Assembly (NCBI RefSeq): GCF_053078305.1
Contig: NZ_CP166879.1
Length of the DNA stretch: 64,000 nt
Strand: one strand, 5' to 3'
Shown: piece by piece, positions 30,001 through 33,000 of the stretch
Layout of the letters: each line of letters begins with the position of its first letter
Position numbering within the stretch: position 1 is the stretch's first letter
Made by a program: the position numbers

Positions 30001-33000
30001 ATCAGTTTTCCTCTCATACCGTATTTACCTTTTTACGGACATGGAAAGCCTTTTCTGCCTCATCCCACCGGGCATGGTGTGTTGGCGGAATAATCATTAT
30101 GTGCCAGCCATCTCTGGTTGTTATCCGGCAGAAAAATTCACCGCTATATAACACAATGGCCTGCTGAATGAGCGCATCAGCCGCCCGTTCAACCGGATGT
30201 CTTTTATCAAAAAAGCAGATGATTTTTCGACATAACCACCGGGTAATAACAAATGCGCCGAAAAAGGATGTGATATATAAGCACCAGAACAACAGAGAAC
30301 TATTGTCCATTATCTTTCTCCTTATTCACTCTTCTGCGGCATTCGGCACAGTCATCAGGGCTTTCAAATGTATCCGGCTCGCGATTATGAGCCAGATATA
30401 ACCACCGTCCACATATACTGATATTTTCGCCTGTTTTAAAAAAATGATGCTTCCTGGCCATTAGTGGCCGCGCCCATCCAGCGGGTAGACTATTCATTTG
30501 CTTTATCCTCCATACTGGAGAGAATCATATGTATTAATGTCGGGCGTGGAGATATACGCATTTCATTAAGCGTCTGAAGGGCAGCAACAGCTGCCTGTTT
30601 ATCGGTGCCTTTGGCAATTTCAGCAAGAGAATGCACAATCCATAACGGGCTTAACGCTACGGCTGAATGCAGAATCATGTCATCCATAATAATTTCTGGC
30701 ATATCCCGTTTGTCACATTCTTTATCCATAAAAGAAACAATTTTTTCTGCATCTTCCGGTTTCATGCCTCCGGCGATGAGAATTTTACGATATTCATAAG
30801 ACGATCTTAATTCAATACTCATCATTCACCTGCCTGTTTAATCAGTTTCCAGTGCTTTGCTACGGGCAACAGCCTCACACTCAAAAAATACCGACTCCGG
30901 CACACGTTCTTTTAATTCACGAACAAGGAAGTTATTAACGCGCTCGTGACATCTTATATTTCTTTCCTTTTCCTCCTGGCGTAATACAGCAAGGCGGTAT
31001 TCAACAGTCCGGCGTTGTTTCTGAAAGACAGCCAGTGCTTTTCTGGCAGAGTTACGCCATGTATCATCACCACAGGGTGCGTATTCAAGCTGAAATTTAA
31101 TCTCTTCAATGGTTTCTTTTATTTTTGCCAGCAAGCTAAGACAGTCGCTGATTGTCTTCAGTTTTTCATTATCAATATAACTTCTCACGCATTCACCTCC
31201 CGTCATTCCGGTAAAGCTGAAATATGGCACCAGTGCGTCACCTGTCCGTCCTCATCTTCAAGGCAGGCTCCGGTTTCTTCATCAATAAAAAAGCCTTCAT
31301 ACCCCATATGGCCGATGCGCAGTTCCTGTTGGTCACCATACTGAACAATCAGCACGACTGCCTCCATATCAGGCGGAAATGCGTCATCCAGTGAATGCCA
31401 GGGATAACCGCGCAAATCCCCGAAATAAACACCGGTCAGCGTTCCGCCACAAACCGGCATTCCGGCGGCACATACCAGAGGCTCGTCTGATTCAACAAAT
31501 AATGTCGTTATCATGGCATTAACTCCCGTAATACAACATCTTCGGCAGTCCGGCGATGGTGATAAATAAAATTCACCGTACTCTCGGATAATTCAAATTT
31601 CTCGCCTATTTCCCGGAAGGTAATACGTCGTGGCGATTCAGCATCCCGTAATTCACGAATAAGACGAACATCATCGTCAGGTATACGGGTGAAGGGCAGC
31701 AATTCACCACACTTTTTTAAGCTGACGCCAGTCACTCGTGCCCGGCAGCGGATGCTGTCATGATGTCGCCCGAGATACTCCCCCATTTGCCTGCTGGTCA
31801 TCGTTCTGGCATTTTTTCGGATAAATTTATCTTCATCAGGTTTAAATCTGGGGCGTTTGCATTTGAGCAACTCCGGGTAAGTACCGCGTAATAAAACAAT
31901 CCGGTTATATACACCCCAGAAACTTCTTTTTACCCTGACAGCAATATCCTTAACCGGGGTGGATGGATAAAGCGCAATCAGCAGTGCATCTTCTTCAGGT
32001 GTCCATGCACGAACATGAGCGGGTGCACGGCCTTTTCGTCCCATGGGTTGTAATATCATCATGCATCACCCCCTGACTCGCTTTTCGGCAGCATAAAACT
32101 CATCAGACAGAATTTCGGTCATTTTCCGTTTTGCGGAATCATCTTCGCACTGAAGGTAAATAACATTGTCAACGCAGAACCACTTAACGGGGCCAAACAG
32201 TATTGCCGAGAAGTCAATGCCCAGCCAGAACAACAGCGCATCGGTTCTGGCATACGTGACGGGCGAATATTCACGCCACAGACTGTTCAGTTCATCAGAG
32301 GCAACACGCAGGGTTTTAGGTATACGTGATGTGCGCGGCGTGCAGCTCCAGCCATTCGACGCAGTCGGTTTTCTCCATAAGTCGCGATGAAAAGGATATT
32401 TGTCATCCATAAAGCGCAGCCCCTTAAAACAAAATCCACTGATACCGGATACAAATACCGGGCGGCACGCAACATTCAGCACAGCCTCAAGGCGTTTTGC
32501 CTCATCTTTTACCGTCTGGCAGTCCTGCTGGTATTTTTGCCACGCAGCCAGCGCGGAAGGGTTTGAAGTTTTAAAGAACATTACGCCACCTCCGCAGAAA
32601 TCGCGGCCGGTGCCGCTGTCCGGTCAACAATCAGGTAACGCAGAACGCGCGAGGTGATATTCCGGCCGCTTAAACCGCAGATAATGACGCCCAGGCGGAT
32701 GTCGATATACGCCATCACAAACTGGGGCACGCCTTCTTTCATGGCCTGCTCATCAACTTCAGCCACCACATAAACGGTTTCACAGGTCAGAACGCCCTGA
32801 GCAAATTCCCACGCCATCGACGGAATATCATGCCCCTCAATCCACGGCAGGGACTTTCTGAAGCTGCACCACTGAACATCATCAGCCGCACATTCCTGGC
32901 TGCATTTGCGACGAACCGGCTGCACCGGGCGGGGACGCGGAATATCATAAAAACCGTTACATTCCGTCAGCACGCCTGCATCAACCGCATCACGCAGAAA

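What the first reader, a model, noticed from the sequence alone, without database searches (positions are those of the whole stretch)
30014..31230. Lower-GC block of four small unknown genes inside the early region
Four consecutive small ORFs (98, 65, 111, 130 aa) between the GemA-like gene and the rest of the early operon are visibly more AT-rich (roughly 42-48% GC by eye) than flanking phage genes (~55%+). One has an N-terminal TM segment and one a Cys pair motif. Composition and position suggest laterally acquired moron cargo, e.g. superinfection exclusion or anti-defence functions, but no family was recognised.
Basis: partly seen in the sequence, partly recalled or inferred. Interest (0 to 1): 0.45.

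Follow-up and report, generated by a model that had tools for sequence, protein, structure and literature searches.

The report
Swappable accessory genes in Mu-like prophage
Four small genes of unknown function form an AT-rich, exchangeable cassette inside the early operon of a Mu-like prophage of E. coli; this is the ordinary kind of variable "accessory region" where phages keep host-manipulating or counter-defence genes, and none of the four could be given a function.

Summary
Four minus-strand genes, here called o98, o65, o111 and o130 after their ORF lengths, lie at 30014-31230. The block has 43.1% GC, the lowest 1.2-kb stretch of a 55% GC prophage. o98 has an N-terminal membrane helix. 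o65 has invariant His18, Cys29, Cys50 and Cys53, a probable zinc site.

The genes are real: Shine-Dalgarno sites, overlapping stop and start codons, and dN/dS of 0.07-0.16. Their families are small, confined to Enterobacterales, and have no match in Pfam, NCBIfam, PADLOC or PDB. Structure models gave no informative fold match.

Sibling prophages show that this is a recombination hotspot between the Mu gp12 homologue (with its neighbouring DNA-binding gene) and gemA. At least five cassette configurations exist, with breakpoints at gene junctions. In some siblings the whole block is replaced by Mu gp13-like and gp14-like genes. o98 has two ancient alleles (dS 2.5) in near-identical flanks.

"Laterally exchanged cargo" is supported. 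"Moron" is not: no promoter or terminator of its own was found, the genes are coupled to the early operon, and that operon ends at a strong terminator after gemA. The most likely role is small binding proteins made early in lytic growth that act on host or defence targets. This is inference. It is an ordinary feature of modest interest.

The parts
30014..30310 (-). o98: 98-aa single-pass membrane protein (TM at residues 5-23; C-terminal domain probably cytoplasmic). Its stop codon overlaps the gemA start (ATGA).
   Evidence: ORF. Hydropathy and flanking charges. The family has only 7 clusters among 5.8 billion proteins. It always lies directly upstream of gemA. A distant homologue occupies the same position in L049 (E 1e-7). 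dN/dS is 0.15-0.16. The AF2 model is unreliable (pLDDT below 50).
30017..30266 (-). Allelic cassette inside o98 (the C-terminal ~80 codons): two ancient alleles of equal length.
   Evidence: Only 44-74% nucleotide identity to the L012 allele, while both flanks are 92-100% identical and there are no indels. Between alleles dS is 2.49 and dN 0.38, whereas the adjacent gemA of the same pair of loci has dS 0.017. Allele A is at 178 of 266 gemA-bearing places in complete E. coli genomes.
30300..30497 (-). o65: 65-aa basic protein with a probable zinc site (H18, C29, C50, C53).
   Evidence: The four residues are invariant in 16 homologues. In the AF2 model the blocks covering residues 1-60 have mean pLDDT 76-88, with short strands followed by a C-terminal helix. 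Matches phrog_2358, unknown function. Homologues lie next to gemA in a Salmonella Mu-like prophage and in the replication or modification modules of unrelated phages. dN/dS is 0.08-0.11.
30490..30825 (-). o111: acidic all-helical protein of 110-111 aa, related to SfMu gp14 (ORF14).
   Evidence: Matches phrog_1988. Ten representatives in 1.84 billion proteins. It is 34% identical to SfMu gp14, which lies at the same gp12-gemA position. The SfMu paper reports ORF14 as absent from Mu and D108 (PMC4406740). AF2 pLDDT is 45-66. dN/dS is 0.07-0.13.
30838..31188 (-). o130: three-helix protein, most likely 116 aa from GTG 31188 (the mechanical ORF extends to 31230).
   Evidence: GGAGG lies 7 nt upstream of GTG 31188. 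RefSeq annotates 116 aa. AF2 gives helices 13-36, 42-95 and 98-117 with block-mean pLDDT of 72-89. Matches phrog_6158. Homologues lie beside xis-like genes in the lambdoid phage Fraca and in a Serratia prophage. Present at 133 of 266 places. dN/dS is 0.10-0.16.
29994..31196 (-). Exchange unit: the segment replaced as a whole in sibling prophages. Internal junctions lie at about 30313 and about 30837.
   Evidence: Pairwise blastn breakpoints against L003, L008, L024 and L033. Configuration table of 33 related loci.
29508..30017 (-). gemA (Mu gp16 family): the conserved right-hand flank of the hotspot and the last gene of the early operon.
   Evidence: Pfam GemA, E 6e-29. 43% identical to Mu GemA.
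29480..29503 (-). Intrinsic terminator just after gemA, the probable end of the early transcript.
   Evidence: Scan hit with 9 pairs followed by a U-run. Hairpin of -13.5 kcal/mol, z -4.1 against shuffles.
31203..31514 (-). o103: a neighbouring variable gene. Together with o130 it is replaced by a 61-aa two-TM ORF in many siblings.
   Evidence: Matches phrog_6925.
31511..32062 (-). o183: SANT/Myb plus HTH DNA-binding protein. It is the conserved left-hand flank of the hotspot and occurs in two allelic classes (~90% and ~74% identity).
   Evidence: phrog_323 'transcriptional regulator, D5-like', E 2e-56. Weak Pfam HTH hits. Present in all E. coli-lineage configurations.
32066..33114 (-). Homologues of Mu gp12 (32066-32581, 51% identity) and Mu gp11 (32581-33114, 66% identity): core anchors of the semi-essential early region.
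   Evidence: tblastn against Mu. Pfam Gp11_C, E 2e-39.

Best explanation
The block is the current filling of a recombination hotspot, an 'accessory region', in the semi-essential early region of a Mu-family transposable prophage of E. coli. The hotspot lies between the conserved gp11-gp12-o183 genes and gemA.

The four genes are independent modules. Each has its own Shine-Dalgarno site and is translationally coupled to its neighbour. They are gained, lost or replaced by recombination at gene junctions, drawing on a pool of AT-richer small genes shared with other Mu-like and lambdoid phages.

They have no transcription signals of their own. They are read as part of the early transcript, which runs from the repressor-controlled early promoter to the terminator after gemA. 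They are therefore made in the first minutes of lytic growth or infection, not in the lysogen.

By analogy with other genes of this region (Gam, Kil, gnarl2/Mup07), the products most likely act as small stoichiometric binders that modulate or inhibit host or defence proteins. They are:
- o98, a membrane-anchored protein with an allelic cytoplasmic domain;
- o65, a zinc-binding mini-protein;
- o111 and o130, two helical proteins.

What is shown: the genes, the composition, the cassette exchange, purifying selection, and operon embedding. What is inferred: the timing of expression and the host- or defence-directed function.
For: Composition: the block is the lowest-GC stretch of the prophage, including at synonymous sites.

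No Mu homologues: Mu carries the unrelated genes gp13, gp14 and gp54 at the same position, and these are also lower in GC.

Cassette exchange:
- At least five configurations occur among prophages with 85-100% identical gemA and gp12. Every alternative cassette has lower GC (0.425-0.47) than its flanks (0.49-0.545).
- Breakpoints fall at gene junctions, and in L024-type prophages the replaced segment is exactly this block.
- Frequencies differ per gene in 5426 complete E. coli genomes: 266 places for gemA, 244 for o65+o111, 178 for o98 allele A, 133 for o130.
- The two o98 alleles have dS 2.5 inside flanks with dS 0.017.
- Each family also occurs separately in unrelated phages, at early or accessory positions.

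Real genes: dN/dS is 0.07-0.16, with Shine-Dalgarno sites and overlapping stop and start codons.

Operon embedding: promoter-like sites are at chance level, and the only strong terminator follows gemA.

Precedent: a small gene of the Mu early region (E6/Mup07, gnarl2) scored as a counter-defence accessory gene in a functional screen. That paper defines accessory regions by variable content between conserved genes and by GC deviation (bioRxiv 10.1101/2023.04.06.535777).
Against: - No functional evidence exists for any of the four proteins. There was no match in Pfam, NCBIfam, PADLOC or PDB sequences, and no significant fold match.
- o65+o111 are nearly constant within the E. coli lineage (92% of places). 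o98-like and o65-like genes recur right next to gemA in more distant Mu-like prophages. This could mean a phage-internal role linked to gemA rather than an arms-race role.
- dN/dS gives no sign of diversifying selection.
- The promoter scan covers only sigma-70 consensus. A weak internal promoter active in the lysogen cannot be excluded.
- AT-richness is shared by most small early genes of this phage and of Mu, so by itself it is weak evidence of recent transfer.
Confidence: 0.6

Rival explanations
1. True morons or lysogenic-conversion cargo. The genes are expressed from the repressed prophage and give the lysogen superinfection exclusion or defence. For example, o98 could be a membrane exclusion protein like HK97 gp15 or P22 SieA.
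For: The composition deviates and the content is variable. o98 is a small inner-membrane protein. A few weak sigma-70-like hexamer pairs lie on the minus strand inside the block, for example at 30124-30096.
Against: Promoter-like hits equal the shuffled expectation, and no terminator bounds any of the genes. The genes overlap each other and gemA, are on the operon strand, and have coupled starts. There are no PADLOC hits. The predicted topology puts the variable domain of o98 in the cytoplasm (inference), unlike periplasm-facing exclusion proteins.
Confidence: 0.12
2. Lineage-specific phage-internal early functions. These would be helpers of transposition, replication or gene expression that work with GemA, equivalent to the classical arm/lig/sot-type 'semi-essential' functions of Mu. 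On this view the low GC is only the usual composition of small early genes.
For: o65+o111 are present at 92% of places in the lineage. o98-like and o65-like genes abut gemA in diverged prophages. Purifying selection is as strong as in gemA and gp12. Mu's own small early genes are also lower in GC.
Against: Viable-looking sibling prophages lack all four genes, or any subset of them, and carry unrelated genes instead. The families also occur in non-transposable phages, lambdoid and virulent. Phage Mu itself has none of them.
Confidence: 0.22
3. Spurious or decaying ORFs in AT-rich spacer DNA.
For: No known domains were found. Frameshifted copies of o65 and o98 exist in some assemblies (P0002 and P0022-P0024).
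Against: dN/dS is 0.07-0.16 for all four. Homologues at 34-68% identity occur in other genera with conserved motifs and lengths. All four have good Shine-Dalgarno sites. AF2 gives confident models for o65 and o130.
Confidence: 0.03

Closest known systems
Phage Mu semi-essential early region, genes gp13 (E14), gp14 (E15) and gp54, between gp12 and gemA
   Same: Same position in the same operon, between homologous gp12 and gemA. Small genes of unknown function with lower GC than their neighbours (0.455-0.48 against 0.53-0.55). Mu gp13, like o65, is a small Cys-rich, probably zinc-binding protein. In some E. coli sibling prophages Mu gp13-like (92%) and gp14-like (50%) genes occupy exactly the place of this block.
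   Different: There is no detectable sequence similarity between any of the four proteins and Mu gp13, gp14 or gp54. Mu has an intergenic promoter region upstream of gemA, whereas here o98 overlaps gemA.
Shigella phage SfMu gp14 (ORF14)
   Same: Homologous to o111 (34% identity over 100 aa; shared motif ALSPxWI...G.DK.AAVAAL). It lies in the same gp12-gemA interval and also has low GC (0.437). It is reported as having no homologue in Mu or D108.
   Different: Its neighbours differ: SfMu has Mu-type gp13 and gp15 around it. Its function is also unknown.
Phage 'accessory regions' and accessory genes as defined by Silas et al. (bioRxiv 10.1101/2023.04.06.535777), including gnarl2 = Mu E6/Mup07
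   Same: Variable sets of small, fast-turnover genes between conserved genes in related phages, with GC deviation used as a scoring criterion. A small Mu early gene from the same operon has a demonstrated counter-defence, host-surface phenotype.
   Different: None of the four genes was found among named accessory genes. The paper's supplements were not searched, and no phenotype is known for any of the four. That paper analysed cultured phages, not prophages.
Morons of lambdoid phages (Hendrix/Juhala definition; my own knowledge)
   Same: Extra DNA relative to sibling phages, with deviating nucleotide composition.
   Different: A moron carries its own promoter and terminator and is expressed from the prophage. 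Here no such signals were found, and the genes are translationally coupled into the early operon.
Anti-CRISPR loci of Pseudomonas Mu-like phages (JBD30/D3112 group; my own knowledge)
   Same: Small, variable, unrelated genes swapped at a fixed position in Mu-like genomes.
   Different: Those loci lie in the late region, have their own promoter and a downstream HTH (aca) gene. Here the site is in the early operon, no acr or aca similarity was tested or found, and the adjacent HTH gene (o183) is upstream and conserved.

Membership tests
Moron (autonomous transcription unit in a prophage) | Inserted between genes that are adjacent in related phages | tested here: met
   In L008/L029, o103 abuts o98. 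In L024-type loci the whole block is absent and replaced. Breakpoints fall at gene junctions.
Moron (autonomous transcription unit in a prophage) | Nucleotide composition differs from the surrounding phage genes | tested here: met
   GC is 0.431 against a prophage mean of 0.550. GC3 is 0.35-0.47 against 0.56-0.62.
Moron (autonomous transcription unit in a prophage) | Own promoter and own terminator flanking the gene(s) | tested here: not met
   There are 7 promoter-like sites against 7.0 expected. No convincing terminator lies inside or bounding the block. The genes overlap their neighbours, including gemA. The scan covers sigma-70 consensus only.
Moron (autonomous transcription unit in a prophage) | Expressed from the repressed prophage | not testable with these tools
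   No expression data for these genes were found. The Sp18 papers give only prophage-level data.
Phage accessory region (variable hotspot between conserved genes) | Conserved flanking genes with variable gene content between them in closely related genomes | tested here: met
   At least five configurations lie between o183/gp12 and gemA among loci with 85-100% identical flanks.
Phage accessory region (variable hotspot between conserved genes) | Member genes occur independently in otherwise unrelated phages (horizontal mobility) | tested here: met
   o130 occurs in Fraca, AsXd-1 and a Serratia prophage. o65 occurs in Klebsiella, Pantoea, Sf11, swi2, PSA25 and 689R2 phages and in a Salmonella Mu-like prophage. 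o111 occurs in SfMu and Yersinia Mu-like phages. o98 is the exception: it was found only in Mu-like prophages next to gemA.
Phage accessory region (variable hotspot between conserved genes) | Genes dispensable for phage growth | not testable with these tools
   Only indirect evidence: apparently complete sibling prophages lack them.
Phage accessory region (variable hotspot between conserved genes) | Encodes anti-defence or host-modifying functions | not tested
   No anti-defence profile library was available. Pfam, NCBIfam, PDB and fold searches were uninformative.
Mu gp13 / gp14 / gp54 protein families | Sequence homology to the Mu proteins at the same position | tested here: not met
   tblastn of all four proteins against Mu bases 1-12000 gave no hit better than E 0.057, and those hits lie outside gp13, gp14 and gp54.
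Known anti-phage defence systems (PADLOC) | Significant match to a defence-system protein profile | tested here: not met
   The only hit was o111 to PDC-S72 at E 0.035 and 11 bits, which is not significant.
Zinc-ribbon / treble-clef mini-proteins (o65 only) | Four conserved metal ligands, the last pair being CxxC at the start of a helix | tested here: inconclusive
   H18, C29, C50 and C53 are invariant. In the AF2 model the helix starts at residue 51. No significant structural or sequence match to a defined zinc-finger family was found. Metal binding was not tested.

The most novel reading that the evidence does not exclude
At least one of the four proteins is a new inhibitor of a host defence or host pathway. 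Two are the most specific candidates. One is o98, a membrane-anchored early protein whose cytoplasmic domain exists as two ancient, interchangeable alleles in otherwise identical prophages; the alleles could match alternative host or competitor targets. The other is o65, the zinc mini-protein that recurs in the DNA replication or modification modules of many unrelated phages. The gp12-gemA hotspot of enterobacterial Mu-like prophages would then be an unexploited anti-defence island.
Probability: 0.3. Interest if true: 0.55.

Novelty: new member of a known kind. Interest (0 to 1): 0.3.

Why it matters
This locus is a clean, well-bounded example of how transposable (Mu-like) prophages of pathogenic E. 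coli shuffle small early genes. Gene-by-gene modules are exchanged at gene junctions, alternative cassettes occupy one fixed site, and one gene has two ancient alleles.

The result gives a short list of candidates for anti-defence or host-takeover screens: four families, plus the alternative cassettes. It also gives natural isogenic contrasts, because sibling prophages differ almost only in the cassette.

It does not reveal a new kind of system, and no function could be assigned.

Tried and rejected
Profile and sequence searches
- Pfam, NCBIfam and PADLOC scans of the four proteins and their neighbours gave nothing significant for the four.
- PHROGs gave only 'unknown function' families.
- Single-sequence and profile searches of PDB sequences gave nothing. 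The best hit was the o130 profile against the Abraxas coiled coil at E 0.002, judged compositional.

Structure
- I ran AF2 on two artificial fusions (o65-linker-o98 and o130-linker-o111) to fit four proteins into two jobs.
- A first attempt with unpaired homologue rows misaligned and was discarded. Arbitrarily paired rows aligned well.
- o65 and o130 gave usable confidence. o98 and o111 did not.
- Foldseek against PDB and BFVD gave no match at E below 0.001, only generic coiled coils. Using fused models may have weakened these searches.
- The afdb50 library was unavailable.

Other ideas tested
- Homology to Mu gp13, gp14 and gp54: rejected.
- Toxin-antitoxin or obligate-pair idea for o65/o98 or o130/o111: rejected, because each gene occurs without the other.
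- Recent positive selection as the cause of the o98 alleles: rejected. dS is saturated (2.5) and dN/dS is 0.15, so the alleles are old and were swapped by recombination.
- The families being intrinsically AT-rich: rejected. o130 homologues in Fraca and Serratia have GC3 of 0.63-0.66.

Literature
- A search for the RefSeq protein accessions found no paper.
- The Sp18 papers give no gene-level data for this region.
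Full report
**Setting**

The window is E. coli chromosome that carries a Mu-family transposable prophage with its genes on the minus strand.
- A 2.2-kb query around the finding matches 231 of 5426 complete E. coli genomes. The best match is 99.8% identical (NZ_AP042687). It also matches Mu-like inserts inside two Stx-converting phage records.
- RefSeq annotation of the best match gives this order: transposase A, AAA ATPase B, a string of small genes, Gam, three genes of about 180 aa, a DNA-binding protein, five small hypothetical genes, gp16/GemA, a Mor-family activator, lysozyme, then the late genes.
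- Against phage Mu, the proteins at 32581-33114 and 32066-32581 are homologues of Mu gp11 (66% identity) and gp12 (51%). The protein at 29508-30017 is GemA (43%; Pfam E 6e-29).
- The finding therefore lies in the semi-essential early region, between gp12 and gemA. Related prophages occur in O157:H7 strains. The Mu-like prophage Sp18 of O157 Sakai is described as intact, spontaneously inducible and packaged (PMC2669165). That this prophage is Sp18-like is my inference; I did not compare it with Sakai directly.

The four ORFs are present at the stated coordinates.
- o130 most likely starts at GTG 31188, 7 nt after GGAGG, giving 116 aa rather than 130. This matches RefSeq and the N-termini of the homologues.
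- The block has 0.431 GC. The prophage mean is 0.550 (sd 0.039 for block-sized windows). The block is the minimum, and only 0.2% of windows are as low.
- The deviation extends to third codon positions: 0.35-0.47 in the block against 0.56-0.62 in gemA and mor. It is therefore not just a matter of amino-acid content.
- The upstream early region is also lower in GC (0.51), with a second trough at 33770-34986. Mu's own small early genes are likewise lower in GC than its larger genes.
- o98 has a hydrophobic segment at residues 5-23, with a -1 N-flank and a +4 C-flank. By the positive-inside rule this puts the C-terminal domain in the cytoplasm (inference).
- o65 has H18, C29, C50 and C53 invariant in 16 homologues.

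**These are real genes embedded in the early operon**
- All four have Shine-Dalgarno sequences, and their ends are coupled. The o111 stop overlaps the o65 start. The o65 stop lies 11 nt inside o98. The o98 stop overlaps the gemA start as ATGA.
- Within-lineage dN/dS is 0.07-0.16 for each gene, the same range as gemA and gp12.
- Sigma-70-like sites are at the shuffled expectation (7 found, 7.0 expected).
- The only convincing terminator on the coding strand is at 29503-29480, just after gemA. It is a 9-pair hairpin of -13.5 kcal/mol, z -4.1, followed by a U-run.
- The genes therefore lack the promoter-gene-terminator anatomy of a moron.

**What the proteins are**

No function could be assigned to any of the four.
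- Pfam, NCBIfam, PADLOC and PDB sequence searches were negative, with single sequences and with family profiles.
- PHROGs places each protein in a family of unknown function.
- The families are small. o98 has 7 clusters at 90% identity, o65 has 17 and o130 has 16, all in a 5.8-billion-protein collection. o111 has 10 representatives at 50% identity among 1.84 billion. All named sources are Enterobacterales.
- AF2 models show o65 as short strands followed by a C-terminal helix that starts at the CxxC (block-mean pLDDT 76-88 over residues 1-60). o130 is three helices, including one of about 54 residues (block-mean pLDDT 72-89). o98 and o111 were modelled poorly.
- Foldseek against PDB and BFVD gave no significant match.

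**Comparative evidence: a cassette hotspot**

I compared annotated E. coli relatives, contigs that encode divergent o98 homologues, and 80 IMG/VR loci recovered with a GemA alignment. Together they show at least five configurations between the conserved DNA-binding gene o183 and gemA:
1. o103-o130-o111-o65-o98, as in the window;
2. a 61-aa two-TM ORF, then o111-o65-o98;
3. o103, then a Mu gp13-like gene (92%) and a gp14-like gene (50%);
4. o103-o98 only;
5. o103-o130, then an o111 with a different C-terminus and an unrelated 86-aa ORF.

In one genome an IS5-family element sits in place of the block.

Homology breakpoints against the window fall at gene junctions: about 29993-30017, 30313, 30837, 31197 and 31505. 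Every alternative cassette in the E. coli lineage has lower GC (0.425-0.47) than its flanks (0.49-0.545).

In complete E. coli genomes, gemA of this lineage occurs at 266 places. o65+o111 occur at 244, o98 allele A at 178, and o130 at 133.

**The o98 alleles**

The last ~250 bp of o98 (30017-30266) are only 44-74% identical to a second allele of the same length. The DNA on both sides is 92-100% identical, and the membrane-helix codons are shared. Between the alleles dS is 2.49 and dN/dS 0.15, whereas the adjacent gemA of the same pair of loci has dS 0.017. These are therefore old alleles moved by recombination, not recent positive selection. A distant o98-like gene occupies the same position in a prophage whose GemA is only 53% identical. 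It has a TM segment followed by a similar C-terminal motif (pairwise E 3e-6 and 1e-7).

**Distribution outside this lineage**
- o111 is related to SfMu gp14 (34% identity), which lies in the same interval. The SfMu authors report ORF14 as having no homologue in Mu or D108.
- An o65 homologue (68% identity) directly precedes gemA in a different Mu-like prophage of Salmonella. Others sit in the replication or modification modules of unrelated phages: beside DNA methyltransferases, a KorB/ParB-like gene, a nuclease, and a TIR-like gene.
- o130 homologues sit at the end of early-gene strings next to excisionase-like genes in the lambdoid phage Fraca and in a Serratia prophage. There they have high GC3 (0.63-0.66). 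The family is therefore not intrinsically AT-rich, and the copy in this window carries a lower-GC signature.

**Interpretation**

'Laterally exchanged accessory cargo' is well supported. 'Moron' is not. Because the genes are embedded in the repressor-controlled early operon, exclusion or defence in the lysogen is unlikely unless a cryptic promoter exists.

The best-supported model is an accessory region whose modules are expressed early in lytic growth. The functional step is an inference from three things: small size, lack of enzymatic domains, and precedent in the same operon. That precedent is Gam as a nuclease inhibitor and Kil (annotation), and Mu E6/Mup07 = gnarl2 as a counter-defence accessory gene.

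The main rival is a lineage-specific phage-internal role linked to GemA. The near-constancy of o65 and o111 favours it, as does the recurrent adjacency of o98-like and o65-like genes to gemA. Against it, sibling prophages lack any or all of the four genes, and the families also occur in non-transposable phages.

**Verdict**

This is a real and cleanly delimited feature, and it is ordinary in kind. It is a new, uncharacterised filling of a known type of phage hotspot, with no function assignable by the available tools.

Noticed in passing
window 33770-34986: This is the second-lowest GC stretch of the prophage (0.457). It covers several small early ORFs between the B-like ATPase gene and gam, in the region where Mu has kil and Mup07. 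It may be a second accessory hotspot.
   Followed up: no
window 29013-29438 and 29480-29503: The prophage has a single Mor/C-family activator. It is closer to Mu C (39% identity) than to Mu Mor (27%). A strong terminator separates it from gemA, and the lysozyme gene follows directly. The early-middle-late regulatory layout therefore differs from Mu, which has both mor and C.
   Followed up: partly
L008 (NZ_CP075697) 2850-3507: In this sibling prophage two extra genes lie between gemA and the Mor-like gene. One of them (140 aa) is on the opposite strand. This is a better candidate for a true moron than the block under study.
   Followed up: no
P0050, P0035 and L043 4378-4983: These accessory proteins show domain shuffling. 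An N-terminal module (EYPETLPCPVHL...AKHYANIEAF) is fused to an o111-like C-terminal domain in P0050, and to a 'PEDLRRS...NNEMYRWTSC' domain in L043. In P0035 that second domain is fused behind an o130-like domain.
   Followed up: partly
LC727881.1 35677-75644 and LC727895.1: Two deposited Stx-converting phage genomes contain an inserted Mu-like phage of this lineage, annotated as 'region of the inserted Bacteriophage Mu-like phage'. One carries the full four-gene block at 95-100% protein identity.
   Followed up: no
window 31511-32062 (o183): The conserved SANT/Myb plus HTH DNA-binding gene that flanks the hotspot occurs in two allelic classes (~90% and ~74% identity). These assort independently of the cassette configuration.
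   Followed up: no
L009 (NZ_CP145714) 4275-5255: An IS5-family element (ISKpn26-like) sits where the block should be. Only a 22% remnant of o130 is left, and o111, o65 and o98 are absent.
   Followed up: no
P0002, P0022-P0024, P0030, P0031, P0040: Frameshifted or truncated versions of o98, o65 and o130 exist in some assemblies. This is either pseudogenisation of individual cassette genes or assembly error.
   Followed up: no
window 39256; 44013-44314; 63001-64000: Homology to the repressor end of the prophage stops at about 39256. Beyond it is ordinary E. coli backbone (uvrC, pgsA, yecA, tyrP, ftnA), with tRNA-Gly, tRNA-Cys and tRNA-Leu at 44013-44314. The best-matching relative carries its copy at a different site, next to the argX-hisR-leuT-proM tRNA cluster, as expected for a transposing phage. 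The last 1 kb of the window has 33.9% GC and was not examined.
   Followed up: partly
E. coli genome collection: Some genomes carry up to 4 copies of this prophage lineage (266 gemA places in 230 genomes), and one copy is on a plasmid.
   Followed up: no
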